From a virus (Duplodnaviria > Heunggongvirae > Uroviricota > Caudoviricetes): DNA of 64,000 nucleotides. Below the pieces are notes generated by a model, which made no database searches, was not told the DNA's origin, and worked only from the letters and a program-made list of their open reading frames with translations. Made by a program: the position numbers and the translations under genes. Each line of letters starts with the position of its first letter. Positions within the stretch are counted from its first letter, which is position 1. The DNA is taken from the IMG/VR virus record IMGVR_UViG_2718218304_000001, positions 50,160 through 114,159 of that record, one strand, 5' to 3'. This document shows positions 1,745 through 46,289 of this stretch, piece after piece.

Positions 1745-1810
1745 AAACAGCCTGCTTCCGTATATTAATAATTAATATGTAGTTATTTATATATACAGAA
1801 GCAGGCTAAT
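1745..1810. repeat. ~60-bp palindromic element, copy 1 (arms CCTGCTTCCGTATAT / ATATACAGAAGCAGG around an AT-rich loop)
   Basis: Read directly; the same arms, including the same single C/A mismatch, recur at about 54240-54300. Confidence 0.6.
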
Positions 1811-2422: not shown

Positions 2423-2488
2423 CTTCTTTCTCGATAGGTAAGTAAATACCTATTTTTGCATTTGATTTTATGTCTGGCAATCAAATAA

Positions 2489-8375: not shown

Positions 8376-9518
8376 TTACAGGTCTGCAAACTGGCTTAGA
8401 GAAGCCTTATCCACGGTAGAATCGATCTGACCTACCAGATATGTGCTTTGCTCTGCCTCTTGTGGCGCAATTTGCAGTGTGTCGGTTAACAACCACTTGT
8501 TCATCCAGACCAGCGGATCAGTGGTAACTTCTGGAAATAAAGCCTTCAGGCCAAGACGATTCATAGCCAGATTGGTGCGGTATTTTACATAGGTTTTGAG
8601 AATATCCGCGTTTAAACCAATCATCGAACCGTCTTTGAAGAGATAGTCTGCCCAGTTCATTTCTTGTTCGGCGACTGATTTCATGGTGTCGTAAATGACG
8701 TTTTCTTCATCAGCAGCAATCTCTTTCCACAATAAACCTTCGCGACCGGTACGCATGAAGCGGATCATGCGTTCAGTTCCTTCGCAATGCAGAGCTTCAT
8801 CACGGGCAATAAAGCGCATAATTTTGGTGTTACCCTCAAGCAACTTCCGTTCACCAAAGGCAAACGTACATGCAAAACTTACGTAGAAACGGATCGCCTC
8901 AAGCGCATTAATGGACACCAACGTGCGGAAAAGCTGACGATGCAAAGGGTATGGCTCCCAGCCATATTCATTTACGTACAGACGCTCAAATTCCTTCTCA
9001 CCTAACGACTGGCGCTCGCAGGTCATCCCATAAAGCCTGTCATATTCAGCAGAGATACTGATCGCTCGGTTGATGATTTCTTCATCCGTAACAATACCGT
9101 CAAAAACAATGCTCGGATCGTCCACCATGCCACGAATAATGTGGGTGTAGCTGCGGCTATGGATAGTCTCAGAGAAAGACCACGTTTCAACCCACGTTTC
9201 CAGTTCAGGAATAGAGATAAGCGGCAGAAGCGTTGCATTTGGGCTACGTCCCTGAACTGAATCGAGTAACGTTTGATAACGGAGATTGCTCAGAAAAATG
9301 TGACGTTCGTGGTCCCGCAGCTTCGTGTTGAAGTCGATACGATCACTCGAAATATCAACTTCTTCCGGCCGCCAGAAGAAAGACAATTGACGTTCAATCA
9401 ACTTTTCAAAATCACGGTATTTTTGCTGATCGTAACGTGCCACGTTGACAGATTGTCCGAGGAACATAGGCTCTTTGGTTGCATCATTAGCACCCAAACG
9501 GAACGTTGAATATGACAT
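8376..9518 (-). CDS. nrdB: ribonucleotide reductase class Ia beta subunit
   Basis: 380 aa; diiron/tyrosyl-radical region and overall NrdB-like sequence; adjacent to nrdA. Confidence 0.9.
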
Positions 9519-9624
9519 GTGTTTTTCCTTTTTCTTTTTTAGTGCGTTTAAACAAGTTGTTATCTTATGTGTTTAAACAAGGCTTACAAATCAAAGAGAA
9601 GGTGGGGATATCCCCCACCATATG

Positions 9625-11940: not shown

Positions 11941-12013
11941 GTATCACCAAATAAAGAGGGCCACTAAATATAGTGGCCCATGTTAATAGATAAGTACTTA
12001 CCTATCAATGAAA

Positions 12014-12583
12014 TCAAATGAGAGACTTAAGAACATCGCGCACCTGGCGGAACTGATCTGTTTGCATACCGGTATGGATGGCAGCCACCGCATCAGCCAA
12101 ATGTTCGTTTTTGTTCACGAGAACATCCTGTCCAGATTGCTTACGACGCAGCCACGGTGCTTTAGGGTGTTTTTTCGTAGCCCACTGGATAATCTCTTCT
12201 TTCGATGTAGTAAGTTTATTGCCGACAAAATGCTTGATTTCGTTTGGAGTAACCTGGATCAATGGCTTATCCACACACGCAAGTACACCGATACAAATAC
12301 CGTAAGACGTCTGCGAACGAGAGTTTTGGCTCCCAACCGGTAGCTCACAAAAAACCATATTTGCCTTATCAATGATTGGCTTCGCAACACGCCATATTTC
12401 ACTGGCGCGGCGCAGATCGTCACTGTTCACACGAACGGTCTTTTTGTTACTCCCCGCTTTAGTCTCAACAAGAGTAAGGCCGTGAATCTCAAGTTCGTCC
12501 GTTTCAAGGTCTAAAGTGCCCACAGCAAGCCCAAAGTTGCTCATAGAGGGATCAACACCAACTACGCTGATTTTTTTACTCAT
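12014..12583 (-). CDS. RuvC-like Holliday junction resolvase (RNase H-fold)
   Basis: N-terminal VVGVDPSMSNFGLAV (catalytic Asp), typical of phage RuvC-like resolvases. Confidence 0.6.
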   Translation of the reverse strand: MSKKISVVGVDPSMSNFGLAVGTLDLETDELEIHGLTLVETKAGSNKKTVRVNSDDLRRASEIWRVAKPIIDKANMVFCELPVGSQNSRSQTSYGICIGVLACVDKPLIQVTPNEIKHFVGNKLTTSKEEIIQWATKKHPKAPWLRRKQSGQDVLVNKNEHLADAVAAIHTGMQTDQFRQVRDVLKSLI

Positions 12584-12592
12584 ATAGTCTCC

Positions 12593-13336
12593 TTACCATG
12601 TTCCCCATATAGGGTTTTCCAATAATCTCGCCTCCAACGAATTGGCTACTATTGCCGTTTGCAACGTTGGTTGGGGATAGTTTGCAAAGTCTGAATACTC
12701 ATTTTCCTGCGTGACACGTTTATCTACGGCATGTTTAACGCCACTTGCTATGAAATGACGCATGATGCCCAACAGCCTCCGACTGTCTGCACTATCGTTT
12801 GCTAAAACATGAGGGAGCTGAAGTTCGATTTCTACCATTTCTCCATACTTACCAACAAACTGTAGTTTGTCCGCACTGTACTTTTTATCCCTCCTTTGGA
12901 TAAGGAAACCAGTAAAAGCATCACCTGGCGATGCCAAACTATCCACCCGCTTATTGGCAAGTCGAATAAGGTTCGTGAAAGCCATACAGAGATGCGCATC
13001 CATTGCCCCAAAGAACCCTTCGCTATCAATGTTAAGATCTTCAGTTTCATGGGTTGCGATAAACCCAGGCCCGACGTTGGGGAGATATCCCCCCTCAACA
13101 AAAGGATTAATCAGGATCGGCGCAATACATCCAGGTGGTAGTGATTTCAAACTTTGCATCAATGGTGTCTCGGATATTAGACCAAGCAACGCGGCGAATT
13201 GCACTCCGTCAATATTGTTGCTGCCCCACAGAATACGTGGAGCCGCACCATTGGAGGTATGCCCATTGATCAGTTTTATCGACTGCATCACTGCAAATAC
13301 CTGCAAAAACTGCGAGCGGCTTAATTTAAACGACAT
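12593..13336 (-). CDS. hypothetical protein
   Basis: 247-aa ORF immediately downstream of the SbcC-like gene (4-nt overlap); no motif recognised. Confidence 0.45.
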   Translation of the reverse strand: MSFKLSRSQFLQVFAVMQSIKLINGHTSNGAAPRILWGSNNIDGVQFAALLGLISETPLMQSLKSLPPGCIAPILINPFVEGGYLPNVGPGFIATHETEDLNIDSEGFFGAMDAHLCMAFTNLIRLANKRVDSLASPGDAFTGFLIQRRDKKYSADKLQFVGKYGEMVEIELQLPHVLANDSADSRRLLGIMRHFIASGVKHAVDKRVTQENEYSDFANYPQPTLQTAIVANSLEARLLENPIWGTW

Positions 13337-15242
13337 AGCTGCGCCCCTCTTTAACTTCCAGCGTAATAGTTTCCCGGAACCACGACTTCATCTCTTTATG
13401 GGAGATAATCAGCACAGTACCTCGCTCGCGAGCTTTGGACTCCAGAATACCCATGAGGCGTTCAAGACCGGCTGTATCGAGTGCATCGTCAATTTCGTCG
13501 CCGATAAACAAATCGATGTTTTTACTCGCCCGGTTACTAACCAGATCCTGCAATGCCAAAGAACACGCAATGCGAACCTTCCGCTTCTCACCACCAGAGA
13601 GGGTTTGGAACGACTTACTTGAACCTTTCTTCTGCACACTAATGTTGAATTTGTCGCGATACTCACCTTTTTTAGTGACATCCATCGTCGACCACTCAGC
13701 AGTAATATTCCCGTCAGACAACGTATTGAGATACTCGGCAGTGCGTGTATTCAGGAAAGGCGTAACAGACGTCAAAATATGAGAACGCACCCCGGCAGGA
13801 GAGTAGACCTGACGAGCTTTTTCCAATAGCAACGTTTGTTCCTGAATAGCCTTCAACTCATCTTTTAAGGACTTGAAGGTAGACTTACTGGATACCAGGT
13901 TATCTTCGTGTCTGGCGATAAGAGCAATAAACGGATTAATCTCTTTTGATATACGATCGACCTCAGTACGAGCACGAGTCACAAGAGACTCAATAGCAAC
14001 AACCTCCTTCTCACGATGACGCAAAGATGAGAGTTGTTTCGTAAGCTCTTCAATCCGGGCAATGATAGCCGTTACATCAGGTGTCGTTTTAACAAGGGCA
14101 GACTCAATGCTTAACGCTTTCTCAAGATTCGTTTTGTGTTTAGCCATTGCCTCTGCAAGTGTCTTCGCCTGACCAATTTCCTGACGTGCTTGTTCAATGA
14201 AATTCTCCTTCACCGTTGATAGATCTTCTTCGCAGTAGGCTTTGCCACAAGTAGGGCATGGTGATCCCACTTTAGTACCAACCTCTTCTGCTTTGGTCTT
14301 AAAATTACGCGCGCGGTTCATTGCATCAGCCTGACTATTTTCTGTAGCTTTGATGCTTGCCCGAATATCAGTTATCGCACCACGAACTTTGAGCAACTTG
14401 GCGTCATGTTCTTCTTTTGAGGCTAACTTTTTGCGCTCACTTTCGATTGCCTTCTCGGTATCACGTATCTGTTCGGGAAGAGTGCGGATCTCAAGTTCAA
14501 CTTCCGTTAACTCAACTTCGGCACTGGCCAGCCCAGCCAGGGCATCGTCATAACGTTTAGAACGCTCTTGCTCCCATGATTCAGAGGAGGCTTTCGCTGA
14601 CTCAATTTCTGACTGTGTTGCCTCAATGGTCGAGATTGTCGACTCCAATTTGGTTTTAACCACATCCATACGTGCGGCAGCTGCATTAGCTCGCTCACGA
14701 GCAATAGCGTAGGCGCGTGTCAGTCTGTCAACGCCAGCGGCTTCTTCTACGATGGTTTTGAGGTTTTTGTCGGACATTCCAGGTAAATCTGGCATAGCTT
14801 CTTGGCTCGCATAGATGGAAGCCATGAAAACCTCTTTAGATGCACCGATCAGACGCTCGACGAACTCCTGCGTCAGCGCATCTTTGCCTTTCGTCATATC
14901 GCCATCTTCACCACGAACGATAAGACGATTTTTGAACTCTTTGTGTTTACGGTGACGAATGATTGCGTATCTCTTGCCTTCATCCTCGATGGTTACTGCA
15001 ACACGACAGTTCTTTTCATGGTCGGTAGACAACACATCGTCACCCTTCACACCATGAGCTGTTTCGCCATAAAGACACCACATCAGGCTATTCATTAGAG
15101 TTGACTTTCCAGAGCCATTACTTGATGCGGAACTATCATCACTATTAACACCCTGAATGAGCACTAAACCACGCTGATCTAACTCGACCTCCGCGCTGGC
15201 GATAGCCATAAAATTCTCAACCTGGAGCTTTAAAAACTTCAT
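13326..15242 (-). CDS. sbcC: SbcC/Rad50-like ATPase
   Basis: N-terminal Walker A GSGKST, long coiled-coil, central CPTCG zinc hook, C-terminal signature/Walker B region. Confidence 0.8.
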   Translation of the reverse strand: MKFLKLQVENFMAIASAEVELDQRGLVLIQGVNSDDSSASSNGSGKSTLMNSLMWCLYGETAHGVKGDDVLSTDHEKNCRVAVTIEDEGKRYAIIRHRKHKEFKNRLIVRGEDGDMTKGKDALTQEFVERLIGASKEVFMASIYASQEAMPDLPGMSDKNLKTIVEEAAGVDRLTRAYAIARERANAAAARMDVVKTKLESTISTIEATQSEIESAKASSESWEQERSKRYDDALAGLASAEVELTEVELEIRTLPEQIRDTEKAIESERKKLASKEEHDAKLLKVRGAITDIRASIKATENSQADAMNRARNFKTKAEEVGTKVGSPCPTCGKAYCEEDLSTVKENFIEQARQEIGQAKTLAEAMAKHKTNLEKALSIESALVKTTPDVTAIIARIEELTKQLSSLRHREKEVVAIESLVTRARTEVDRISKEINPFIALIARHEDNLVSSKSTFKSLKDELKAIQEQTLLLEKARQVYSPAGVRSHILTSVTPFLNTRTAEYLNTLSDGNITAEWSTMDVTKKGEYRDKFNISVQKKGSSKSFQTLSGGEKRKVRIACSLALQDLVSNRASKNIDLFIGDEIDDALDTAGLERLMGILESKARERGTVLIISHKEMKSWFRETITLEVKEGRSYVV

Positions 15243-15471
15243 ATAACACCTCTGATACCGTGTGTTAGCTTTTGGCCTTCTTTCAATCTGAACTCCGTAT
15301 GCGCCGGGAAGGATCTGCGCCTCAATACGCCTTTTCTTGTTAACCTTCCAAGATAAAACGCTACGGGATTTCCTTGTGGCGGGTAGGGCTTGTGAAACAT
15401 CACCGTCTGGCCTCGTTCAAGTCTTTTCATCGTGATGGCAAAGTCTCGAAAGCTCCCATAACGACTTTGCT

Positions 15472-16557
15472 TCACACAGCCTCCGAACTCTCCGCTTCGG
15501 TGAGGATTTCCTGACACAAAATATCCAATTTGCTCAGATCAAATCCGCCGTCAGTATCGTGGACAATCTTGCAATAAGCAGATACCGACTCTCCCAGGCT
15601 ATCGATTTTGCTGGTTTCAGTTGTGCTGGCTGTCCCTTCCATCATTGATGACTTACGGATGAAGTTGCACACGACACCTTTTGCACCCATTGTTTTGAGG
15701 ATGTTCTGGTACTTAATGCCTTCTTCATCGTTCTCAATTACGGCGCGGAAACGCACGTAGTTGCCGCGAATTTGGTCATCAGCAACATCATCTTCCAGGT
15801 TAATGAATTTAGGCGCACTGGTTTCGTAGTGACTGAAACTGCCGTCCGGGTTTACGATCATGTAGCCAGCCAGAGATCCAACATCTCCCCAATTTTGATG
15901 AGTCAGTGCACCGACACTGATAACTCCAGGAATGACCTCTTTGTGGTTGTGGTAATGCCCACTAAGCACGAGACGAAAGCCGATATCCTTTAACTCCTGC
16001 GCATCGATACCGACGTCAGGCATTGTTGGAATGGCTTTGTTAATGGATGTATGGATAACAACGTCATGATTATCACCTTCTACGCTCTTACGTAATGCTT
16101 TCAGATCGCTGATAAGCTCCGCATGATTGTTACGCCAGCTAATCAGGTGGACAGTCACATCACCAATTTTTATTGAGTGTGGGCGCTTGCCACATACGAT
16201 TACCACGCCGATAGAACTCAGCGATGCTGCTGCGTTGGCGCTATATACTGAATCGTTGGTTTCAAGATCGTGATTACCGGCCAGCATTACTACTGTCAGA
16301 TCAAGCTCGTTGATAATCCACTTGTACGTTTCAGTTACGTAATGCAAAACAGAAGGGGACACAGTTCCTCGGACGTGAAATGTATCACCGGCAACCAACA
16401 TGTACTTACAACCGGCCTTCTTCATGGCGATGGCTGCTTCTTTCGTTGCTTCCAACTGTATTTCAAGTCTGGAGTTAAGCCCCTCAGCGTTCGTCGTGGA
16501 GAACGCATCCCATTTGTGGTAGTGGCAGTCAGAAATGACGCCGTATGGCAAAGTCAT
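15472..16557 (-). CDS. sbcD: SbcD/Mre11-like nuclease
   Basis: Calcineurin-like phosphoesterase motifs (SDCHYH, GDTFH, GNHD); paired with the SbcC-like gene. Confidence 0.8.
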   Translation of the reverse strand: MTLPYGVISDCHYHKWDAFSTTNAEGLNSRLEIQLEATKEAAIAMKKAGCKYMLVAGDTFHVRGTVSPSVLHYVTETYKWIINELDLTVVMLAGNHDLETNDSVYSANAAASLSSIGVVIVCGKRPHSIKIGDVTVHLISWRNNHAELISDLKALRKSVEGDNHDVVIHTSINKAIPTMPDVGIDAQELKDIGFRLVLSGHYHNHKEVIPGVISVGALTHQNWGDVGSLAGYMIVNPDGSFSHYETSAPKFINLEDDVADDQIRGNYVRFRAVIENDEEGIKYQNILKTMGAKGVVCNFIRKSSMMEGTASTTETSKIDSLGESVSAYCKIVHDTDGGFDLSKLDILCQEILTEAESSEAV

Positions 16558-16811
16558 GTGTTTTTCCTTTGTGGTTATTTTGATACAAATTCTAAGAGCA
16601 ATGAGGAGGTAAACAACTATGCATAACGGTATGTTAGGAATGAAACGAGCGCCTTAATATACAAAATTTATAAGTAAGTATATACCTATTTATCGTGGCG
16701 CAACTTTGCTTGTCTGTATGACTAAAAATAAGACAGGATCACTGTAGAACGCTATGAGAGCTATTTTGAGGGGGCGTAGATTCTATCTACGCCAATATAC
16801 GATCTGGAGGG

Positions 16812-17456
16812 TTACAGCGCGTCAGTGGGCTTTTTACGCGCTGCGTTTATGCTTATGACGCCAGCTTTTGGACGTGGGTCAACAAGGTTAAGCTCTTCTT
16901 CACTGTGGTATTCGAGGTCGAACTCACGTTTTACATGTCTGATGTAGATTGCGGTGAGCAGGCTATCTTTGGTCAGAAAGTGTCCGTAGGATTTGCGGAT
17001 CACTTCTTCTACCTTCTCGATTTTCTCACCACCCATACAGAGATGATTAAACCGGCTGTGTTTCCGCAACATTTCGTCTACTGGGCCTGAGTAAACCTTG
17101 TCTACTTTCCCAAAACGGATGATTTTCCCTGTGTCTGCGGATACGAGGCAAATCAGCTTGTCTGGTGATAAACGATCTCGCCACGTCACACCTGAACGGA
17201 GTGTGTTGAAGTAGGGAGCATCCAATCCGATGATCGGTTTACGAAATGCGAGTAATGGAACGTACCTGATGCAACTGTTTAAATGAAAATTCACACCAGC
17301 CTTATCAAGTTTAATTCTGGTTTCGTAGATCGGGCACTTTGCCGCTATACCGCAGATGTCACAAAGCAACTTCTGCTTATTCAGGTTGGAATTTGATTCG
17401 ATAGTGTAGGAGCCGTCTTCAAGACGACGAACCCAGCGCGTGCGTTTTAGATCCAT
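16812..17456 (-). CDS. hypothetical protein (Cys-containing)
   Basis: 214-aa ORF with CDICG...C cluster; no confident family assignment. Confidence 0.45.
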   Translation of the reverse strand: MDLKRTRWVRRLEDGSYTIESNSNLNKQKLLCDICGIAAKCPIYETRIKLDKAGVNFHLNSCIRYVPLLAFRKPIIGLDAPYFNTLRSGVTWRDRLSPDKLICLVSADTGKIIRFGKVDKVYSGPVDEMLRKHSRFNHLCMGGEKIEKVEEVIRKSYGHFLTKDSLLTAIYIRHVKREFDLEYHSEEELNLVDPRPKAGVISINAARKKPTDAL

Positions 17457-17654
17457 ATGTCATTTTTCTGTGATTGTTAGCCGAGGCAACGATAACCCAC
17501 CAGGTGCGCCGAAGGTAGTAAATGCCTGTTTTAATTATTCACATATCCACAGGATAGATCCTAATAAAGAGATCCATAGATAGATCCTTGTATAGATCAA
17601 ATAAGATCCCCGATCGCTGTAAGCCGCGCCACGACTGGTCTGAAGCCATGTTCA

Positions 17655-17760
17655 TGTATGCTGTCAGCGGTAATTGATAGTCTGTCAGCGGTTCACCGTA
17701 TGCTGCCAACTGTTTTTGGTATTCTGTCAGCGGCAAATCAAGTATGCTGTCAGCGGTTGA
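17655..17760. repeat. iteron array (5 copies, ~21-bp phasing) upstream of repA; candidate origin
   Basis: Repeats of (G)TATGCTGTCAGCGGT and variants at about 17657, 17678, 17699, 17722, 17743. Confidence 0.8.
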
Positions 17761-17777
17761 ATGACAAAGGTGTCCAC

Positions 17778-18872
17778 ATGTCCACAAAAAATAAAAAAGG
17801 TAAAAATAACAAAGAAGTAGAAGATAATCTCGACAACTTTGAAGAAGGTTCCCTTGAATTGTACACAGGGGAACTTGTCCCTAATAGCAACAATACAGTC
17901 CAACCAATTGCGTTGATGCGGCTGGGATTGTTCGTGCCCACGCTCAAGGGGACAAAATACAGCAAGCGTAACAAGCCAAATGAGATCGATGCTTCAAAGG
18001 AGCTTGTCCAGCTCGAAGTAGCCCGTTCTGAAGGCTATTCCGATATCAAGATAACCGGTCCTCGTCTCGACATGGATCATGATTTCAAAACGTGGGTGGG
18101 CGTTGTGCGTTCGCTGGCAGAATACGGCGAACCTAATGGTCGTGTCGAGTTAAGCATCACGAAATTTGCGAAGTTTTGTGGCTATCCATCGTCACAGATC
18201 CGCAAAACACTCCGCGACCGGCTTACAAACAGTCTTTTGAAGATCATGCGTACAACTCTGTCTTTCCAGAGAACGTATGAAGAAAAGAACGTCGACGGCT
18301 CTAACAAGATCTCGCTTCTGATGGTGCACCTCATCAATAGCGTGGACTACAACGAGCAGAAAGATACGGTGGTGTTCTATGCAGAACCGAAGCTGGCCGA
18401 ACTATATCGCTTTGACCATAAGGTTCTTTTGCAGTTAAAGGTTATCAATAAGCTACCACGCAAAGAAACAGCACAGGCTCTGTACACCTTCATCGAAAGT
18501 CTTCCAACCAAGCCTGCGCCGGTATCGCTTGCTCGATTGCGTGCGCGACTCAATTTGAGTAGCAGGAATGTCAGCTCGCAGAATCAGACTATACGTAACG
18601 GCTTAAAAGCTCTCCAAGATTTGGGCTATCTCGAATACAGCGAGATTAAGCGTGGGCGGTCGATCTATATCCAGATTCACAGCCGCAATCCAAAACTTAA
18701 AGTCGCACCGCCAAAACCTGAAGACATCGAACCCAAAAAACCAGATGAGAAAGCCGGGGAAATTGATGCTAAACAGAACATTATCAACAAGATAACTGAA
18801 CTTTCGCAGAATTTGACGCCTGAAAATATCAAGATGATTGAGATCCTTTCCAATAGTCTCAAACTGCTTTGA
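17778..18872 (+). CDS. repA: plasmid-type replication initiator (RepA-like, iteron-binding)
   Basis: Track ORF 17658..18872 overlaps the iterons; ATG at 17778 (MSTKNKKGK...) is the likely start; gene is bracketed by iteron arrays as in P1-type replicons. Confidence 0.65.
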   Translation: MSTKNKKGKNNKEVEDNLDNFEEGSLELYTGELVPNSNNTVQPIALMRLGLFVPTLKGTKYSKRNKPNEIDASKELVQLEVARSEGYSDIKITGPRLDMDHDFKTWVGVVRSLAEYGEPNGRVELSITKFAKFCGYPSSQIRKTLRDRLTNSLLKIMRTTLSFQRTYEEKNVDGSNKISLLMVHLINSVDYNEQKDTVVFYAEPKLAELYRFDHKVLLQLKVINKLPRKETAQALYTFIESLPTKPAPVSLARLRARLNLSSRNVSSQNQTIRNGLKALQDLGYLEYSEIKRGRSIYIQIHSRNPKLKVAPPKPEDIEPKKPDEKAGEIDAKQNIINKITELSQNLTPENIKMIEILSNSLKLL

Positions 18873-19405
18873 TATGCTGTCAGCGGTGAAATGTATGCTA
18901 TCAGCGGCTATTTTTCTGAAAAGTATGCTGTGAACGGTTAAAGATATGCTACCAGCGGTATAGTGAGATGAACGTATGCTGTGGGCGGTAAATCATCTAT
19001 CACCACTCAATGCTCTTTTATACCTCCCCAGTGGTTACTAACCTCGAAGAGTGCATTCCATATAGGTTTGCGCTCACTAACATTCTATTCCCATTGCGCT
19101 GATTGCTTGTAGTGAAAGGCATTTATTGCCTGCTGCTCCCTGATAGAACGTATGCTGTCAGCGGTGTTTTATTGAGGAATTTTTGTTTGGATATGCTATC
19201 AGCGGTAATTAATGGTATATGTCAGACCTTCGTATGCTGCCAGCGGTAATTTTGTTCTGGTTATACCCATACCGGTACACATTATTCATGCAATGTCTTA
19301 AGTATGCTGTCAGCGGTAAAAAATCGAGTAAAGTATGCTGTGAGCGGTGAGATAGACTCTCGATATGCTATCAGCGGTAGTTGATTGTGTATGCTGTTAG
19401 CGGTG
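18872..19405. repeat. second iteron array (about 12 copies, irregular spacing) downstream of repA; candidate copy-control locus
   Basis: Same TATGCT(G/A)TCAGCGGT core at about 18874, 18895, 18923, 18944, 18974, 19150, 19192, 19232, 19302, 19332, 19364, 19388. Confidence 0.8.
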
Positions 19406-19451
19406 ACGACTATGAAATATGACTGCGGCACGTTCCGCAGTCAGTTTGCAT

Positions 19452-19664
19452 TTAGTGTATTTTCTTTAACAGACCCCAAAGTGTTCCGGCTTTTGTAGTC
19501 AGTTTTCCTGTTTCTGGATCGTACATACGCCATTCACGCCGCTGGTGGACGATATACCCATCTTCACGTTCCAGACGCTCAAGAATGCCAGACTGCTTGA
19601 AACCCTTAGCACGCCAGTATCCGCTTGTTTTCTCGATTTCCAGACCTGCCAGTGTTAATGCCAT
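19452..19664 (-). CDS. hypothetical small protein
   Basis: 70-aa ORF translationally coupled to the upstream gene. Confidence 0.4.
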   Translation of the reverse strand: MALTLAGLEIEKTSGYWRAKGFKQSGILERLEREDGYIVHQRREWRMYDPETGKLTTKAGTLWGLLKKIH

Positions 19665-19999
19665 TATCCAACCTCCTTGCAGTCATCGAAAAGGTAGCTT
19701 TGCTGAGAAGCGTGAACGCCATAGAAGCCCTTGTATTTGTTGTATACGAAGTGGTCTTCTCCGACGCCGGTTAATTTGCCATTACGGTTTGTGAGATATG
19801 GGGATGACAATACTCGATCGTCACGCACAACATAGAACTGGTCGCCGCTGTCTACGACCATCGCTCCATATGGTGCTTTTATGACGTCGGTAAGAGCGCC
19901 ATTCTTAACGTCGGCTACAGACATTTCACACTGATAAACAGTGGTGTCGGCCACAACGATCGAGGAAAGGAACAACAGAGCGAATGGGATGGCCTTCAT
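19664..19999 (-). CDS. secreted hypothetical protein (signal peptide)
   Basis: N-terminus MKAIPFALLFLSSIVVA looks like a Sec signal peptide. Confidence 0.5.
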   Translation of the reverse strand: MKAIPFALLFLSSIVVADTTVYQCEMSVADVKNGALTDVIKAPYGAMVVDSGDQFYVVRDDRVLSSPYLTNRNGKLTGVGEDHFVYNKYKGFYGVHASQQSYLFDDCKEVG

Positions 20000-20175
20000 G
20001 CTGCCACCTCTTTGATTACATCAAATGCTGAATTAAATACGAGCACGATAGCCAAAGCGTTTATGACTACGTCGTTCACCGGGGAAAAGACTTTACGAAT
20101 GACACCGGTGAAAATGCAGTCGATGACAAAAGCTATTGAAACGATGAGTAACAAGTATTCAATAAAAATCTTCAT
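19996..20175 (-). CDS. small hydrophobic membrane protein (59 aa)
   Basis: Hand-found ORF (MKIFIEYLLLIVSIAFVIDCIF...) below the 60-aa track cutoff; stop overlaps the next start (ATGA). Confidence 0.35.
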   Translation of the reverse strand: MKIFIEYLLLIVSIAFVIDCIFTGVIRKVFSPVNDVVINALAIVLVFNSAFDVIKEVAA

Positions 20176-20214
20176 GATAGGTAGATACTAACTTATATAA
20201 ATTTTACTATAAAC

Positions 20215-20490
20215 TCACTCAAAAGTGCTGATGCTTAAAATACGCTCAAGATGTGCGGCATCTTCATCACTGATTTGTTGAGTCTCTTCTACGTACCAAC
20301 AGTTGCCGTTATGCCAACAAACACCATCATCATCAACTATCACTGAAACAGCGTCATGACCTGTATATTCAACGAGAATACGCTGGATCAGCGCGTCAGT
20401 TTCTTCGTCGTTAAGGCCATCAGCTTTGACCATAAAAAGCGGAAACACGTCATAGACAGTGCTGGTAACGATTCGAACTAAAACTCTCAT
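20215..20490 (-). CDS. hypothetical protein
   Basis: 91-aa ORF with the conserved upstream AAAGGAAAAACACATG context. Confidence 0.45.
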   Translation of the reverse strand: MRVLVRIVTSTVYDVFPLFMVKADGLNDEETDALIQRILVEYTGHDAVSVIVDDDGVCWHNGNCWYVEETQQISDEDAAHLERILSISTFE

Positions 20491-20545
20491 GTGTTTTTCC
20501 TTTTGTGGTTAGTGTTTACTTATTTTGTTAGTTATGAATAGGCGA

Positions 20546-20971
20546 TCAATCTTCTTGTTTAGGGAAAAACTGTTCAATAACTCTGTCAACGGCTGTGTCT
20601 ATATGGAGTAGATGCCACACAACCATATCTTTGCTTCCCATGCCTTGTGTGAATATCACGTCATACTTACGCCATGCGCAGTGGAACCAATATGCTGAGT
20701 CATCAATTGGTAAATCCTCTCCCGCCTCTTTGAAGTATTTCAGCAGCATTGCCTGCTCTGCCGTTGGCGTTGGACCTATTTCCTGAGCGTACATACGGAT
20801 GAATCGCTGCCAGTCTGTCTCGTCGGGGGTTGGATCTGGTGGGGTCATTTCTGCGATAGCGTTTCGTAGCTGATGCGCCCAATCAGGTTCAGGAAAGCCT
20901 TTTGCTACTTCATCATCAATAACATCCAGAGCCACGTTTGCGGCATCGTAGAGTTTCTTAATAGCTGTCAT
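20546..20971 (-). CDS. hypothetical protein
   Basis: 141-aa ORF. Confidence 0.45.
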   Translation of the reverse strand: MTAIKKLYDAANVALDVIDDEVAKGFPEPDWAHQLRNAIAEMTPPDPTPDETDWQRFIRMYAQEIGPTPTAEQAMLLKYFKEAGEDLPIDDSAYWFHCAWRKYDVIFTQGMGSKDMVVWHLLHIDTAVDRVIEQFFPKQED

Positions 20972-21050
20972 GTTTTCTTATCCTTTTAAACAAATTGTTT
21001 TCTTAATAAGATAATTGCGATAAAAAAGGCGTCCTGTGGACGCCTTGTGT

Positions 21051-24663: not shown

Positions 24664-25692
24664 TTACAGAGAGTCCAGCTCTCTCAGTAGGTCATCCAGA
24701 CCTTCATCTTCCGTCGCAGATGCGGTTGCTACAGATGTCGCTGCGACTGCTTCAGACTCTTTGACTGATACGGCAACGGCAGCGGAACTTGCCTCTGGTT
24801 TAAATTCAGTTTCAACGGCACGGAGGATTTCTTCATCAACCAGACTGGTTGGTTCAGAAGCCGGTGTGTGCGCGGTTGCTACAGCCGTCGCTCCTTCTGT
24901 ATGACCAGTGACAGAGCCAAATCCAGGTAGTGCCGCAGCCGATGTTTTCGCGGTTGAGGAAATTGCTGGTGCAGATGCTGCGGCAGTTGGTGCAGCGATG
25001 CCAATCAGACGACCCATAGTGCGAACTGTCGACAGAAGACGAGTTTCATCAGCCTGATTTGCGTATGCGATCAGATCATGCTGGGTGTTCCAGAATTTAT
25101 CTTCGATATCGCCTTTGTAGACTTTACGCTTAGGCGAGACGTCATATTTGGTATCGCGACCAGAGCCAGTACGTTTAATCAGGAATGCGTAGCCTTCCTC
25201 TTTGCTCAGTGGATTGCCGATATCATCAGCGATGTCTTCGGTGATTGCTTTGCAGATATCATCGAATACAGTAGACGGCAGCTCGATTAACTGGCATTTC
25301 TCAGCATCTGCGAAATCCTCACGAGCAGAAAGAATGCCGTTGACCAGGTAGCGAGGAGTGGCACGCATTTGACCGATGCGTTCTTCCATTGCTTTGTTAC
25401 CCTTGTGACGAGCGCGACCTTCCATCACCATTTCGCATAGCTGACAAGCGCGACCATGAGTATGTTGCTCACAAATATAAGCGATGGTTGCTTCTTTACC
25501 TTCCTCGTTCTGATACTTAACGTAGTGCATACCGAAAGTCTGGAAGAACTTACCGTTTGGGTCGTCCTTATTCGGGAAGATACGGATATAGTTGACGCCA
25601 TCTTTTAAGCGAGTCAGATCAACGTTGTTACCACGTTTGGCGGCAATGTCTTCACGAGTTTTGTTAAGCAAATCAAGTAATGTCTTAGACAT
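24664..25692 (-). CDS. ssDNA-binding protein (T4 gp32-like)
   Basis: Zn-binding His/Cys cluster CEQHTHGRACQLC in an OB-fold-sized N-domain, Ala/Ser-rich linker and acidic C-terminal tail; recombinase/FEN neighbourhood. Confidence 0.55.
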   Translation of the reverse strand: MSKTLLDLLNKTREDIAAKRGNNVDLTRLKDGVNYIRIFPNKDDPNGKFFQTFGMHYVKYQNEEGKEATIAYICEQHTHGRACQLCEMVMEGRARHKGNKAMEERIGQMRATPRYLVNGILSAREDFADAEKCQLIELPSTVFDDICKAITEDIADDIGNPLSKEEGYAFLIKRTGSGRDTKYDVSPKRKVYKGDIEDKFWNTQHDLIAYANQADETRLLSTVRTMGRLIGIAAPTAAASAPAISSTAKTSAAALPGFGSVTGHTEGATAVATAHTPASEPTSLVDEEILRAVETEFKPEASSAAVAVSVKESEAVAATSVATASATEDEGLDDLLRELDSL

Positions 25693-25809
25693 GTGTTTCT
25701 CCTTGTTGTGATTTGGCCGATGGCGCTATGCGCGTTGGGCTTTCGTTCATTCGTGGCTCTTTCGAGCTGTTAAATGATAGATCAGCACTTACTTATTATC
25801 TATCAAAAA

Positions 25810-27344: not shown

Positions 27345-27673
27345 TGATGCCCGCCAATTGGCGGGCATCTGTTCTCTGTAAAGGTGTCTGGCATCGTCTG
27401 GTTCGTTAACGTTTACTAAACCAATGGTGACAAAAATTAGTTATCTTTGAAAAATAAAGGTTGCATGAAAAGAAGGGGTATGCGTTAATAGCATCGTTGG
27501 TTTGCAAGACAGACCTTATGTAAGCAGTTTTAGTAAAGCAGTCTCAGTTCAGTGTTATCTTCTGATTTCCCTTCTTCGTGAGTCTCCTCCTTAAGTGCCT
27601 AAGTAAGTCCCAATCTATACAGATCAAATTCTCGCCGCACTATGTGGCTCACAAAATTAAGAAGGTAATATCT

Positions 27674-27889
27674 ATGTCTAATAAAATGACTGGTTTAGTA
27701 AAATGGTTTAACTCTGATAAAGGCTTTGGCTTTATTTCTCCTGCTGATGGCAGTAAAGATGTTTTTGTACATTTTTCGGCAATTCAGAGTAATAATTTCC
27801 GCACTTTGGAAGAAGGCCAGCAGGTCGAATTCTCTATCGAGAATGGGGCTAAAGGCCCAGCAGCAGCAAATGTCGTTGCTCTAAGCTGA
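27674..27889 (+). CDS. cold-shock protein (CspA family)
   Basis: [23 protein letters not shown]...[12 protein letters not shown]1/RNP2 motifs of the CspA family; ~71 aa; long 5' leader upstream. Confidence 0.85.
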
Positions 27890-28168
27890 TTCAACGCTGA
27901 TGATCCTCATTTCTACAATAACGAAGACGGTGTAAGCCTGAGTGGATAGATTTGTAGGATTGTACAAGTTGAATAAATTAGCATGGTAAGGCCATGCTAA
28001 TTAAATCGACACAACGGCCAGTTTATTCCATAAAAGTGAATTGCCCATTGTGGCGAAATGCGGGGTTGCCGCATGAATAGTCAAAGGCAGAAGCTAACTG
28101 CCGGCATGGCAAAACAAAGTGCGTAAGAGGAGTGACTTCCTCAACAAGCGCCATAATTCTTTATAAAC

Positions 28169-38797: not shown

Positions 38798-38874
38798 TGG
38801 TGCCGGTTAACGGGATCGAACCGCTGACATCCTGCTTACAAGGCAGACGCTCTACCAACTGAGCTAAACCGGCA
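38798..38874 (-). tRNA. tRNA-Thr (anticodon TGT)
   Basis: Hand-folded: acceptor GCCGGTT/AACCGGC, D-arm GCTC-AGTTGGTA-GAGC, anticodon loop CTTGTAA, T-loop TTCGATC, CCA. Confidence 0.8.
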
Positions 38875-38877
38875 ATT

Positions 38878-38964
38878 TGGTGGGGAGTGATGGAGTCGAA
38901 CCACCCGAGTCGCAATGACAGTAGATTTACAGTCTACCCCGCTGCCCCTACGGACTAACTCCCC
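38878..38964 (-). tRNA. tRNA-Tyr (anticodon GTA), long variable arm
   Basis: Hand-folded: acceptor GGGGAGT/ACTCCCC, anticodon arm GTAGA-CTGTAAA-TCTAC, T-loop TTCGACT, CCA; D-arm pairing less clear. Confidence 0.7.
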
Positions 38965-38969
38965 TAAAT

Positions 38970-39044
38970 TGGCGATGGTGGGTGGATTCGAACCACCGAC
39001 CAGTTGGTTAACAGCCAACTGCTCTACCGCTGAGCTACACCATC
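38970..39044 (-). tRNA. tRNA-Asn (anticodon GTT)
   Basis: Hand-folded: acceptor GATGGTG/CACCATC, D-arm GCTC-AGCGGTA-GAGC, anticodon arm GTTGG-CTGTTAA-CCAAC, T-arm GGTGG-TTCGAAT-CCACC, CCA. Confidence 0.85.
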
Positions 39045-40474: not shown

Positions 40475-41793
40475 TCTTTATCTCCGATTCGATCTTCGGT
40501 ATCGCGTAAGCAACGCGGCCATTTCAGTCGTGGGTGGCGTAAGCTGCCATCCGGCGTTTTCTCGTGACAATGAACCTCGACAATACGACCACGGTACTTC
40601 TCTTTGTTGTTCCAGATCTCGTCCAGATATTTATGCTTAATGCCGCTCGCACGAACAATCACACCGTTTTCAAGGCGAATAACAATTTTTCCAAGCGTGT
40701 TGGCAAAACCAGAGTCCGGGTCGCCAGGCTCAAAGTCGATAATTTCACCATCTTCTGAATCTTCGTCTTTTAACTTCCACCAGCTGCGGGTACGTTTAAA
40801 CTCGTAAACAGAGTTCGGATCTTTGCCCATCTCCCCTTCTTCGTTATCGTCCAGGCGTTTCATGAAGCGTTCGATGAAGTCTTCGTGGCTATGGATGATG
40901 TAGAACGGATGAAGGTGGATATCTTGCGCATAATCTTCCACGCAAGTGTTGCGGAACAACGCCACCAGCATAGCCAGGCGCTCTTTCAGCTTCATACCGG
41001 TCTTCAGGTACTCTTTGCTTTTTGCTTGAGCACGCCACTCCGGTAAGAAGAAATCGAAAATGTGGTAAACGGCACCAATGGCTTTCACGTTCTTCTTACG
41101 AAGCGCCGACACTGACTGGTTGAATGTACCTGCAGTGCCCTCTCCATCGAAGAAGATGTGATTGAAGCCGGAGAGTCTGCCCCGCTCCAGCATGGCTGGT
41201 TTAAGGTGATCGAGTGACGTAATCGGATTGCCGGTGCGCGTCAGGAAATTGACCTCACCCTCGTCCACGATGACTTCGCAGATAACCCGGAGACCATCGA
41301 GTTTGAGACTGCCGATCATTGGCCACTTGGCCTTTGGATTTGGTTTAAATGGGTATTTGTCGCCTTTCTCCTTGTACGGAGACGCCAGCTGTACCTCAAA
41401 CTTCGGAATTGGGTTTTTGAACACCTTGTTGCACAGGCTGATGCCGACACCGGCTTTCGGATCTTTCAGCAGGAAGCGACGAAACACGTCCTGCCCGTCA
41501 GCGCACATCGAGGCAACGAGTGATTCGACAGCAGCAATAGCGATGTTCCCGGTCAGTTCGCGCGCTGCCAGCTTCTCCAGCAGATCTACTACCTTCTGGT
41601 CGCTGGGTACGGAAGTATCGAGTGGCTCGGCCACTTTGTACTTCTTCACACCGAATCGAATGAATGGATTGAGCATTAGCGAGACCATGCTCTGTTCAAA
41701 TTCATCCAGATTGGCCAGCGCCTCTTTCTTGGCGTTGGTTCCCATCGTTTTAATAGCATCCAGCTTGTGCTTTAGGGCGATCAGTTTTTCCAT
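40471..41793 (-). CDS. ATP-dependent DNA ligase
   Basis: Adenylation motif I SLKLDGLRV (KxDG) and downstream nucleotidyltransferase/OB-domain pattern; 440 aa. Confidence 0.8.
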   Translation of the reverse strand: MEKLIALKHKLDAIKTMGTNAKKEALANLDEFEQSMVSLMLNPFIRFGVKKYKVAEPLDTSVPSDQKVVDLLEKLAARELTGNIAIAAVESLVASMCADGQDVFRRFLLKDPKAGVGISLCNKVFKNPIPKFEVQLASPYKEKGDKYPFKPNPKAKWPMIGSLKLDGLRVICEVIVDEGEVNFLTRTGNPITSLDHLKPAMLERGRLSGFNHIFFDGEGTAGTFNQSVSALRKKNVKAIGAVYHIFDFFLPEWRAQAKSKEYLKTGMKLKERLAMLVALFRNTCVEDYAQDIHLHPFYIIHSHEDFIERFMKRLDDNEEGEMGKDPNSVYEFKRTRSWWKLKDEDSEDGEIIDFEPGDPDSGFANTLGKIVIRLENGVIVRASGIKHKYLDEIWNNKEKYRGRIVEVHCHEKTPDGSLRHPRLKWPRCLRDTEDRIGDKE

Positions 41794-41827
41794 TAGTGTT
41801 TAACCTCCATCGGTCGCTCGGGAGTTT

Positions 41828-42303
41828 TCATGTGTTTTCTTTGGTTGCTTCTTCAATGAGTGCCGCGTACACGTCAGTGATCGACGCCAGTGAATCGGTG
41901 GGCTTGGTTTCGGATTTAGCAGGTTCTGTTTTCTTCGTGCGATGAATAAGACTGTCAATTGTCGCGGAGTTTCGCTTCCGGGGGGCGTTCTGGCATGGTC
42001 GTTTTGCTCTTCCACTTCTTTGATAAGTGAAGACATATCGATGAAGTAGAGCTGTTCGCCTTTGCGGATCTCTTCGACCATCATTTTCAGTGCCTGACAT
42101 TTACCAGCAGCAATAGCCGCAGCACAGGACTGGAACGATGTAGCCGGGAGACGTTTTTCTTTATAGGCGAGGATCGTGTGTTGGCAGACTGTATAGCTGC
42201 AATGAGCCTCATGGCCGTTGAGCTTCACTTCCGGGCAGCGCAGCGAATAACCGTTGTTTCCGGAGATAGACGGGATTTTCGACAAATCTGTTCTTGTGGA
42301 CAT
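41828..42303 (-). pseudogene. Cys-rich hypothetical gene split between two frames at a C6 homopolymer (frameshift, sequencing error or slippage)
   Basis: Track ORFs 41800..42303 and 41828..42100 overlap in different frames. The N-terminal half is protein-like only in the first frame and the C-terminal half only in the second; the switch coincides with CCCCCC at about 41980-41985. Confidence 0.4.
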
Positions 42304-46272: not shown

Positions 46273-46289
46273 ATTAGCAGGGATTGGTT

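What the first reader, a model, noticed from the sequence alone, without database searches (positions are those of the whole stretch)
16560..16580. Shared translation-initiation context AAAGGAAAAACAC-ATG on many minus-strand genes
The same SD-spacer-start string (plus-strand CATGTGTTTTTCCTTT) precedes sbcD-like (16557), the 91-aa gene (20490), nrdB (9518), SSB (25692), the AAA+ gene (33115), primase (51935) and, with small changes, dnaE and the helicase. Probably just a strong shared ribosome-binding context, but the conserved CACATG may also be an RNA-level signal.
Basis: seen in the sequence. Interest (0 to 1): 0.2.

Follow-up and report, generated by a model that had tools for sequence, protein, structure and literature searches.

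The report
Shared translation-start motif of phage-plasmid genes
Eight replication and nucleotide-metabolism genes of this SSU5/Cyrano-like phage-plasmid start with nearly the same short, unstructured, A/C-rich ribosome-binding leader ending in ACAC-ATG; this clade-specific "start-associated sequence" is really conserved, most likely tunes translation initiation, and is modestly interesting rather than a new kind of element.

Summary
AAAGGAAAAACACATG occurs 3 times exactly and 4 times with 1-2 mismatches, all on the minus strand and all at ORF starts (0.09 expected). The helicase has a variant one base shorter. The window is an SSU5/Cyrano-like phage-plasmid.

The full consensus is (AACCAC)AAAGGAAAAACAC-ATG(A): an AAGGA Shine-Dalgarno box, a 7-nt A/C-only spacer and ATG. 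At sbcD and the 91-aa gene it makes up nearly all of a ~25-nt leader behind a conserved sigma70-type promoter.

Across more than 80 related elements the SD and spacer length vary, but ACAC just before ATG is as conserved as non-synonymous codon positions. Different genes carry it in different lineages. It is absent from the late genes, from 70 sampled E. coli genes and from relatives with at most 57% SbcD identity.

I found no Rfam family, stable structure, antisense partner or RegA homologue.

Best reading: a clade-specific, unstructured translation-initiation context for lytic-cycle genes that cannot be translationally coupled. It resembles the start-associated sequences of Cluster K mycobacteriophages. 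The reason for CAC is unresolved, and a trans-acting factor is not excluded.

Interest is low to moderate.

The parts
16555..16576 (-). sbcD-like gene: AACCACAAAGGAAAAACAC + ATG (start-associated motif, exact 16-mer)
   Evidence: block conserved in 14 representative relatives
16558..16582 (-). Inferred whole sbcD leader (~25 nt, CAAAATAACCACAAAGGAAAAACAC). It contains only A and C apart from the GG of the SD and one T.
   Evidence: Inferred from the promoter position. The transcription start site has not been measured.
16589..16616 (-). sigma70-type promoter of sbcD: -35 TTGTTT (16611-16616), 16-nt spacer, -10 TAGAAT (16589-16594)
   Evidence: TTG of the -35 and T, A, A, T of the -10 are invariant in 14 diverged relatives, while the flanks vary.
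20488..20509 (-). 91-aa gene: ACCACAAAAGGAAAAACAC + ATG (exact 16-mer). Its promoter has the same geometry as at sbcD: TTGATC at 20544-20549 and CAAAAT at 20522-20527.
9516..9537 (-). nrdB: AAAGAAAAAGGAAAAACAC + ATG (exact 16-mer). It lies downstream of a terminator hairpin (9601-9619) and an AACAAnTTGTTT palindrome (within repeat copy 9540-9567).
25690..25711 (-). gp32-like SSB: TCACAACAAGGAGAAACAC + ATG (2 mismatches)
31697..31718 (-). dnaE: ACCATAAAGGTAAAAACAC + ATG (2 mismatches). It lies inside the 3' end of an upstream 69-aa ORF (31674-31883).
33113..33134 (-). CobS-like AAA+ gene: GAGAACAAAGGAAAAACGC + ATG (1 mismatch; the SSU5 orthologue has CAC)
51906..51927 (-). Primase region: ACCACAAAAGAAAAAACAC + ATG, with no GG in the SD position. 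This ATG opens a 22-codon stretch fused in frame to primase here. In SSU5 the same ATG opens a separate 23-codon ORF that stops 3 nt before the annotated primase ATG.
53334..53355 (-). DnaB-like helicase: AAGCACCAAAGGAAAGCAC + ATG (spacer one base shorter). It lies directly downstream of the palindrome AAAACAAATTGTTT (within repeat copy 53346-53373).
41793..41850 (-). Weak extra copy, ACCAAAGAAAACAC + ATG (ATG at 41831). It opens a 12-codon mini-ORF (MKTPERPMEVKH) whose TAA overlaps the ligase ATG (TAATG). The mini-ORF is also present in SSU5.

Best explanation
The string is a clade-specific translation-initiation region, a 'start-associated sequence', used by lytic-cycle DNA-metabolism genes of SSU5/Cyrano-type phage-plasmids. 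These genes follow an intergenic gap and so cannot be translationally coupled to an upstream gene. The mRNA presents an AAGGA Shine-Dalgarno box (5 bp with the 16S 3' end) 7 nt before AUG. The leader around it is made almost only of A and C. Such a leader cannot pair with itself, contains no alternative start codon, and has the oligo-A spacer that favours initiation in E. coli. At sbcD and the 91-aa gene this leader is nearly the whole 5' UTR (~25 nt) behind a sigma70-type promoter. Elsewhere it sits downstream of other promoter/operator types or inside operons, so it acts at the translation or mRNA level, not as part of one promoter. Shown: the motif, its restriction to gene starts, its conservation and the weak local structure. 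Inferred: the transcription start, efficient 30S binding as the selected property, and the role of CAC. CAC may break the A-run and avoid U and G, but that does not explain why CAC rather than another A/C triplet.
For: All motif copies end in the ATG of an ORF on the gene strand. AAGGA plus a 7-nt spacer falls in the 5-9 nt optimum, and oligo-A at -7..-4 was the most favourable spacer in E. coli (PMC7264876). All 13 CAC-ATG genes of Cyrano have an upstream gap of at least 43 nt. Their -40..+40 regions fold more weakly than those of other genes (median -8.7 vs -13.65 kcal/mol, p = 0.0017). In most of the eight window sites the SD-to-AUG stretch is unpaired in the MFE fold, and no site is more stable than shuffles (z from -1.5 to +1.4). 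Diversity at -4..-1 (0.04-0.13) is far below third codon positions (0.28-0.47) and below upstream DNA (0.17-0.27) in four gene families. The SD varies (AAGGA, AAGGAG, AGGG, GGAAG, AAGA), as do spacer length and position -5, while ACAC-ATG stays. The set of genes carrying it differs between lineages. RecA, SbcC, NrdA, Band7 and MazG have it in L197, L212 or L213 but not here; NrdB has it here but not in L213. The motif sits behind different promoter types and also inside operons.
Against: CAC at -3..-1 is not a host-wide preference: 0 of 70 sampled K-12 genes, including ribosomal-protein genes. C was measured as unfavourable in E. coli spacers, although only at -7..-4 (PMC7264876). Relatives with the same synteny in other Enterobacterales (Klebsiella, Morganella; SbcD 56-57% identical) lack the motif, so it is not simply the optimum for such hosts. 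The phage's own late genes lack it. Identity over 22-26 nt between unrelated genes exceeds what ribosome binding needs. Two copies have no GG at all (primase, ligase mini-ORF). No expression or ribosome-profiling data were available.
Confidence: 0.55

Rival explanations
1. The motif is a translational operator. A clade-specific trans-acting factor (an RNA-binding protein or a small RNA) recognises the (A)nCAC-AUG leaders and co-regulates a post-transcriptional regulon of replication, recombination and nucleotide-metabolism genes, as T4 RegA does for T4 early genes.
For: ACAC is conserved although it cannot pair with 16S rRNA. The motif is specific to a clade: present where SbcD identity is at least 60%, absent at 57% or below. 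It is absent from the host sample and from late genes. The replication module is T4-like (gp32, UvsY, UvsW, gp46/47-like). Cyrano and SSU5 encode a full-length FljA-family protein (Pfam Flag1_repress, E = 1e-80), and FljA is a known translational repressor of fliC mRNA (PMC2652032).
Against: No RegA-family match appeared among the 25 Pfam families listed, out of 42 matched, for 60 non-structural Cyrano proteins. The E. coli fliC leader shows no ACAC-AUG, so FljA-like most plausibly targets host flagellin. No antisense partner exists in the window other than the sites' own opposite strands. There is no Rfam hit. Position -5, the SD and spacer length vary freely, and CAC/TAC/CAT polymorphisms occur among near-identical genomes. 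No coordinated change of the tail across genes of one lineage was seen.
Confidence: 0.17
2. The similarity is mainly historical. Short promoter-leader cassettes were duplicated or homogenised by recombination between dispersed copies (concerted evolution). They are kept only because any working RBS is under purifying selection, and CAC has no special role.
For: Near-identity over 22-30 nt, including AACCAC upstream of the SD, between sbcD, the 91-aa gene and primase (D7/D9). sbcD and the 91-aa gene have identical promoter geometry, with the -10 ending at -32 and related -35 regions (TTGnTCGCCT). In other lineages the leader of the 91-aa gene is different (CTTACCAACAAGGAG...), so its likeness to the sbcD leader is specific to this lineage. 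The element encodes its own recombination system.
Against: In the most diverged lineages the rest of the leader has been replaced but AACACATG persists (sbcD in L197/L201). The tail appears on different orthologues in different lineages, with different SDs and spacer lengths. That is hard to obtain by copying a cassette. At the 91-aa gene -16..-5 evolves at a near-neutral rate (pi 0.25) while -4..-1 stays at 0.036.
Confidence: 0.15
3. The motif is an RNA-processing signal. ACACAUG holds two overlapping ACA triplets at the start codon. An ACA-specific endoribonuclease of MazF type (host or plasmid toxin) would cut there, either inactivating these mRNAs or turning them into leaderless mRNAs.
For: ACA lies at -4..-2 and at -2..+1 in every full copy. 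The element carries several toxin-antitoxin modules (HicAB, RelE/ParE, KacT in Cyrano). That MazF cuts at ACA is from my own knowledge, not tested here.
Against: No MazF-family gene was seen in the element. ACA is a common trinucleotide in any A/C-rich leader. The CGC (cobS), TAC and CAT variants destroy one or both ACA sites. The leaderless-mRNA model is itself disputed (own knowledge).
Confidence: 0.04
4. The motif is a DNA-level signal, such as a promoter element, an operator or a methylation site, that happens to abut start codons.
For: At sbcD and the 91-aa gene the motif lies in the initial transcribed region of a promoter. Several copies form ACATGT (nrdB, SSB).
Against: The motif is strictly strand-specific and fixed at distance 0 from ATG, whatever the promoter type or distance. 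It also occurs inside operons and inside an upstream ORF (dnaE, primase). It contains the SD. The element's clear DNA-level motifs are separate palindromes (D3 and D8).
Confidence: 0.04
5. The resemblance is chance or generic Shine-Dalgarno similarity.
For: A-rich low-complexity strings recur easily. The exact 16-mer occurs singly in many unrelated viral contigs.
Against: 7 matches against 0.09 expected. CAC-ATG enrichment at starts has p = 9e-11. The motif is conserved across more than 80 relatives.
Confidence: 0.01

Closest known systems
Start-associated sequences (SAS) of Cluster K mycobacteriophages (Pope et al. 2011, PMC3203893)
   Same: A short asymmetric repeat in one orientation only, within a few nt of the start codons of 11-19 genes. 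It is nearly always paired with ATG and restricted to the non-structural half of the genome. It contains an SD core plus conserved positions that cannot pair with 16S rRNA. It is carried by different gene families in different subclusters. About half the copies are preceded by inverted repeats thought to bind a DNA-binding protein. Its function is still unknown.
   Different: The sequence is unrelated (GGGATAGGAGCCC vs AAAGGAAAAACAC). Here the motif abuts the ATG directly, and the most conserved part is the 3' tail ACAC rather than the flanks of the SD. The SD itself is variable. The host is an enterobacterium and the element is a phage-plasmid.
A-rich spacer / unstructured-leader rule for E. 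coli translation initiation (Komarova et al. 2020, PMC7264876)
   Same: SD 5-9 nt from AUG, oligo-A in the spacer and low local structure all fit the motif.
   Different: That work found cytidines unfavourable (tested at -7..-4). It gives no reason for a conserved CAC at -3..-1, and host genes sampled here do not use it.
T4 RegA translational-repressor regulon (own knowledge)
   Same: A set of early DNA-metabolism genes of a phage with a gp32/UvsY/UvsW-type replication module that share a sequence spanning the start codon.
   Different: No RegA-family match appeared among the Pfam families listed for the scanned Cyrano proteins. The RegA consensus is A/U-rich (AAAAUUGUUAUGUAA), not A/C-rich. 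No binding evidence exists here.
FljA, translational repressor of fliC mRNA (PMC2652032; bioRxiv 10.1101/2025.10.27.684867)
   Same: An RNA-binding translational repressor whose family is encoded by Cyrano and SSU5.
   Different: Its known target leader (fliC) lacks the motif. The gene lies outside this window. No link to the motif was shown.

Membership tests
Shine-Dalgarno-type bacterial translation-initiation region | A purine-rich box complementary to the 16S rRNA 3' end | tested here: met
   AAGGA (or AAGGAG, AAGGT) is present in 7 of 8 window sites. The primase copy has AAAGAAAA with no GG.
Shine-Dalgarno-type bacterial translation-initiation region | SD 5-9 nt upstream of a start codon that opens a real ORF | tested here: met
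   The spacer is 7 nt (6 at the helicase). All eight ATGs open ORFs: seven genes of 91-1168 aa, orthologous to annotated genes of Cyrano and SSU5, and one reading frame that runs into primase.
Shine-Dalgarno-type bacterial translation-initiation region | An accessible (weakly structured) initiation region | tested here: met
   Median MFE -8.7 vs -13.65 kcal/mol for other genes, p = 0.0017. No site folds better than shuffles. The accessibility difference alone is only a trend (p = 0.07).
Start-associated sequence (as defined for Cluster K mycobacteriophages) | An asymmetric repeat, in one orientation, immediately upstream of start codons | tested here: met
   All 7 matches are on the gene strand and end in ATG. 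The only antisense occurrences are the sites themselves.
Start-associated sequence (as defined for Cluster K mycobacteriophages) | Restricted to non-structural genes | tested here: met
   In Cyrano all 13 CAC-ATG starts lie between 31 and 86 kb. None lies among the 25 virion and lysis genes at 0-28 kb.
Start-associated sequence (as defined for Cluster K mycobacteriophages) | Conserved positions that cannot be explained by 16S pairing | tested here: met
   ACAC at -4..-1 has pi 0.04-0.13, against 0.28-0.47 at third codon positions. The SD itself varies.
Start-associated sequence (as defined for Cluster K mycobacteriophages) | Sequence GGGATAGGAGCCC / homology to the Cluster K repeat | tested here: not met
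   The sequence is different, so this is an analogue and not a member of that repeat family.
Start-associated sequence (as defined for Cluster K mycobacteriophages) | Rare in the host genome | tested here: inconclusive
   0 of 70 sampled K-12 gene starts have CAC at -3..-1. The whole host genome was not scanned.
Start-associated sequence (as defined for Cluster K mycobacteriophages) | A subset preceded by inverted repeats (extended SAS) | tested here: inconclusive
   The palindrome AAAACAAnTTGTTT lies directly upstream of the nrdB and helicase copies, and of the TciA and hyp87 copies in Cyrano. It also occurs without the motif, at hyp58 and parA.
T4 RegA-type translational operator set | A RegA-family repressor encoded by the element | tested here: not met
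   No RegA-family match appeared among the 25 families listed, out of 42 matched, for 60 non-structural Cyrano proteins at E <= 0.01. The annotated functional genes were not rescanned.
T4 RegA-type translational operator set | Specific binding of the repressor to the shared leader | not testable with these tools
   Needs gel shift or CLIP.
Known structured cis-regulatory RNA (Rfam) | A match to a curated covariance model at the sites | tested here: not met
   The only hits in the window are cspA (27496-27914) and tRNAs.
MazF-type ACA cleavage sites that generate leaderless mRNA | ACA at or just upstream of AUG | tested here: met
   ACACAUG has ACA at -4..-2 and -2..+1. This is a weak criterion in an A/C-rich leader.
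MazF-type ACA cleavage sites that generate leaderless mRNA | Cleavage there in vivo | not testable with these tools
   Needs 5'-end mapping.

The most novel reading that the evidence does not exclude
The (A)nCAC-AUG leaders are operators of a clade-specific post-transcriptional regulon. A factor encoded by SSU5/Cyrano-type phage-plasmids, or a host factor they exploit, reads ACAC-AUG. Candidates are an RNA-binding protein such as the FljA-like or ASCH-domain protein, a small RNA, or an ACA-specific RNase. The factor would switch the translation of replication, recombination and dNTP-synthesis genes on or off together, for instance to keep them silent in the plasmid state or to favour them after induction.
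Probability: 0.15. Interest if true: 0.6.

Novelty: new member of a known kind. Interest (0 to 1): 0.27.

Why it matters
The motif has three practical uses and raises one open question.

It is a start-codon marker for annotating this widespread family of enterobacterial phage-plasmids. It places the start of the primase reading frame at 51908 rather than at the TTG at 51935, and it points to short leader ORFs in front of primase and ligase.

It delimits a sub-clade, because it is present only where SbcD identity is about 60% or more.

It defines a co-marked set of lytic genes (SSB, DnaE, helicase, primase region, SbcD, NrdB, a CobS-like ATPase and small proteins) whose shared leader could be tested as one unit.

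The open question is that the selected nucleotides, ACAC before AUG, are not those expected from E. coli initiation rules. The same puzzle remains unsolved for mycobacteriophage start-associated sequences, and E. coli is a more tractable host in which to address it.

Tried and rejected
- **Exact 16-mer scan of IMG/VR.** This was uninformative apart from the SSU5-like contigs.
- **sigma70 consensus scan.** It found no promoter in front of the motif genes because the -35 boxes match only 3 of 6. The promoter was recovered from the conservation pattern instead.
- **Antisense or sRNA partner.** A duplex scan of both strands of the window found only the sites' own opposite strands.
- **Structured RNA.** No Rfam hit at the sites and no fold more stable than shuffles.
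- **RegA-like repressor.** No RegA-family match among the Pfam families listed for 60 Cyrano proteins. The FljA-family protein found instead has a known target, the fliC leader, that lacks the motif.
- **Upstream ORF ending in ATGA.** In the -2 frame, AAC ACA TGA has no start codon within the sbcD leader (read from the sequence), so this was rejected. Genuine short ORFs exist only at the primase and ligase copies.
- **Host-wide optimum.** Rejected on the K-12 sample and on Klebsiella and Morganella relatives that lack the motif.
- **Literature.** No paper in the library contains the motif string in a relevant context or describes it for SSU5, pHCM2 or Cyrano.

Full report
**What the window is.** Megablast of window 9000-21000 finds Escherichia phage Cyrano (OV696614, 98% identity over 85%) and Salmonella phage SSU5 (77%). 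The window is therefore about 64 kb of an SSU5-type phage-plasmid, lying in reverse orientation to those records. Most of its genes are on the minus strand. Cyrano and SSU5 were fetched with their annotation as references.

**Checking the observation.**
- AAAGGAAAAACACATG is found 7 times with at most 2 mismatches. All copies are on the minus strand, against 0.09 expected; no shuffle reached 7.
- Exact copies end in the ATGs of nrdB (9518), the sbcD-like gene (16557) and a 91-aa gene (20490).
- Near copies end in the ATGs of the gp32-like SSB (25692), dnaE (31699), a CobS-like AAA+ gene (33115) and an ATG at 51908.
- The helicase (53336) has the same string with a spacer one base shorter.
- The repeat finder recovers the same families without prior knowledge. 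It shows that the similarity extends further 5': AACCACAAA(A)GGAAAAACACATGA at sbcD, the 91-aa gene and primase, with 27 of 30 positions identical between the last two (D5/D7/D9).
- Of 16 CACATG on the minus strand, 8 are gene starts and one opens a mini-ORF. None of the 10 on the plus strand is a convincing start.
- In the fully annotated relative Cyrano, CAC is the commonest triplet at -3..-1 (13 of 108 ATG starts). The enrichment over all other ATGs is 16-fold (p = 9e-11). All 13 lie in the non-structural region at 31-86 kb and none in the 25 virion and lysis genes.

**Anatomy.**
- The motif is AAGGA (5 bp to the 16S 3' end), then the 7-nt spacer AAAACAC, then ATG, usually followed by A.
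- Alignment of 14 diverged sbcD upstream regions shows a sigma70-type promoter. Its TTG (-35) and T, A, A, T (-10, TAGAAT) are invariant while the surrounding bases vary. In the window the -35 is at 16611-16616 and the -10 at 16589-16594.
- The inferred start is about 7 nt downstream of the -10. The whole leader is then about 25 nt, CAAAAUAACCACAAAGGAAAAACAC. It consists of A and C apart from the two G of the SD and one U.
- The 91-aa gene has the same geometry, with its -10 also ending at -32.
- Other copies sit behind different arrangements. nrdB and the helicase follow a -10-like hexamer and the palindrome AAAACAAnTTGTTT. cobS follows a GATAAGTAAC...TTAC palindrome. dnaE lies inside the end of an upstream ORF. 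The primase copy follows a hairpin after the helicase gene.
- The motif is therefore not a piece of one promoter type. It is tied to the start codon.

**Comparative evidence.**
- Eighty loci centred on SbcD relatives (77-100% identical) were fetched with 10-kb flanks, and orthologous upstream regions were extracted.
- In four families (sbcD, nrdB, the 91-aa gene, SSB), nucleotide diversity at -4..-1 is 0.04-0.13. That is comparable to codon positions 1+2 (0.03-0.23). Third codon positions have 0.28-0.47 and DNA further upstream 0.17-0.27.
- At the 91-aa gene, -16..-5 has diverged at a near-neutral rate (0.25) while -4..-1 stays at 0.036.
- What varies: the SD (AAGGA, AAGGAG, AAGGAGG, AGGG, GGAAG), the number of A's, and position -5 (A, G or T).
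- What stays: (A/G)CAC-ATG, with occasional TAC or CAT transitions even among near-identical genomes.
- The most diverged sbcD lineage has a different leader but still ends in GGAAGAACACATG.
- The set of genes carrying the tail changes between lineages. RecA, SbcC and NrdA have it in L197. RecA, Band7, NrdA and others have it in L212 (SbcD 69%). MazG and NrdA have it in L213 (60%), where NrdB lacks it.
- Syntenic relatives with SbcD 57%, 56%, 43% and 37% identical (Morganella, Klebsiella, a metagenomic contig, Burkholderia) do not have the signature.
- A sample of 70 annotated E. coli K-12 genes, including about 30 ribosomal-protein genes, has CAC at -3..-1 zero times (13/108 vs 0/70, p = 0.002).

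**What the motif is not.**
- No Rfam family matches at the sites.
- None of the eight sites folds better than shuffled controls, and the SD-to-AUG stretch is mostly unpaired.
- No sequence elsewhere in the window is complementary to the motif.
- No RegA-family match appeared among the Pfam families listed for 60 non-structural Cyrano proteins.
- The only translational-repressor family found is a full-length FljA homologue (CYRAN_114, E = 1e-80; 78% identical in SSU5). It lies outside the window, and its known target, the fliC leader, does not contain the motif (PMC2652032).
- No paper in the library mentions the motif. The Cyrano paper reports only which genes are expressed in the lysogen. The motif genes are not among them, which is consistent with lytic-cycle genes.

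**Interpretation.**
- The best-supported reading is a clade-specific translation-initiation context for genes that must recruit ribosomes de novo. All 13 Cyrano CAC-ATG genes follow a gap of at least 43 nt, and their initiation regions are less structured than those of other genes.
- The AAGGA box, the 7-nt spacing and the oligo-A at -8..-4 agree with measured E. coli preferences.
- An A/C-only leader cannot self-pair and cannot create upstream start codons. This is inference.
- The specific choice of CAC is not explained. C was unfavourable where tested, host genes do not use CAC, the phage's late genes do not use it, and sister clades in related hosts do not use it.
- That leaves room for a trans-acting reader (about 0.17), for concerted evolution of leader cassettes (about 0.15) and, less likely, for an ACA-directed RNase.
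- The closest described phenomenon is the start-associated sequence of Cluster K mycobacteriophages. It has the same genomic logic but an unrelated sequence, and its function is also unresolved.

**Two side results on gene starts.**
- The motif ATG at 51908 opens MSLYGIQIPRLIKILPAKNRGKN, fused in frame to primase. In SSU5 the same ATG opens a separate 23-codon ORF that stops 3 nt before the annotated primase ATG. In Cyrano the primase is annotated from the internal GTG. This copy therefore probably drives a leader ORF or an N-terminal extension, not the conserved primase start itself.
- A weaker copy (ACCAAAGAAAACACATG, ATG at 41831) opens a 12-codon ORF whose stop overlaps the ligase ATG. It is also present in SSU5.
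- Both of these copies lack GG. This suggests that the A-rich + CAC tail can mark a start without a canonical SD.

**Verdict.** The feature is a new example of a known, poorly understood kind (a start-associated sequence), with low to moderate interest.

**Limits.** Gene calls in the window are ORF-based and mapped onto Cyrano and SSU5 annotation. Transcription starts are inferred. The host baseline is a 70-gene sample. No expression data were available.

Noticed in passing
window 9540-9567, 20978-21005, 53346-53373, 56278-56305 (minus-strand genes nrdB, hyp58, helicase, parA): The palindrome (AAGA)AAACAAnTTGTTT(AA) lies directly after a -10-like hexamer (TAAGAT, TAGTAT, TATAAG), that is, at the predicted transcription start. 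About 10 copies lie upstream of genes in Cyrano and SSU5. It is a candidate operator of a dispersed repressor regulon (D8).
   Followed up: partly
window 2433-2453, 11985-12005, 16669-16689, 33230-33250, 39792-39812, 43237-43257, 58882-58902: There is a second dispersed palindrome, GATAGGTAAGTAnnTACCTATC, in 7 copies. At nrdA it fills the spacer between TTGATA (-35) and TAACAT (-10). This suggests a second class of repressible promoters (D3).
   Followed up: partly
window 11958-11979 (minus), 10-17 nt upstream of the nrdA ATG (11940): The hairpin GGGCCACTATATTTAGTGGCCC followed by T's lies just in front of the nrdA start. Relatives keep the stem through paired changes (GGGCCAC/GTGGCCC, AGGCCAC/GTGGCCT, AAGCCAC/GTGGCTT). 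It could be a terminator or attenuator, or a protein-binding hairpin, in the nrdA leader.
   Followed up: no
window 17656-17764 and 18872-19411, flanking the plus-strand repA ORF 17658-18872: There are 14 or more iteron-like repeats, GTATGCTGTCAGCGGTAA, on both sides of the RepA (Rep3-type) gene. This is the plasmid replication origin (D1/D2/D6/D16).
   Followed up: no
window 27496-27914 (+): A full-length match to the cspA thermoregulator (RF01766, 185.7 bits) covers a CspA-like ORF at 27578-27889. Cyrano has HicAB in this neighbourhood instead.
   Followed up: no
window 43977-50590 (+): A cargo island lies on the opposite strand between the ligase and primase regions. It holds an IS3-type transposase (rve), a chaperone-usher fimbrial operon (fimbrial subunit, PapD chaperone, PapC usher, second fimbrial/adhesin protein) and a Fic/Doc protein. 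There are no PADLOC defence hits except weak ones for Fic. The island is absent from Cyrano at this place.
   Followed up: partly
window 38391-39044 (-): A cluster of four tRNA genes (Ser-tga, Thr-tgt, Tyr-gta, Asn-gtt). Cyrano is annotated with three (Asn, Thr, Ser).
   Followed up: no
window 1751-1806 and 54239-54294: Two copies (82% identical) of a 56-nt element with inverted termini, CCTGCTTCCGTATAT...ATATATACAGAAGCAGG, around an AT-rich core, lie 52 kb apart. Its function is unknown (D10).
   Followed up: no
L003:780-1301 (-) (Cyrano CYRAN_114) and L005:46900-47415 (-) (SSU5_121); outside the window: Both phage-plasmids encode a full-length FljA-family protein (phase-1 flagellin translational repressor; Pfam E = 1e-80) with a weak Hfq-like stretch. 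Both are annotated only as a transcriptional regulator or repressor. It may silence host flagellin.
   Followed up: partly
window 51842-51908 (-) and 41793-41831 (-): Short leader ORFs precede two replication genes. A 22-codon stretch is fused to primase here but forms a separate 23-codon ORF in SSU5. A 12-codon ORF has a stop that overlaps the ligase ATG. Public annotations of the primase start differ between Cyrano (internal GTG) and SSU5 (downstream ATG).
   Followed up: partly
window 16639-16689 (minus strand, about 100-130 nt upstream of sbcD): A second conserved block lies upstream of the sbcD promoter: TTACTTATA(A/T)ATTTTGT(C)ATA(A/T)T, an extended -10-like TGnCATAAT next to a half-site of the GGTAAGTA palindrome. 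It suggests tandem promoters (D13/D18).
   Followed up: no
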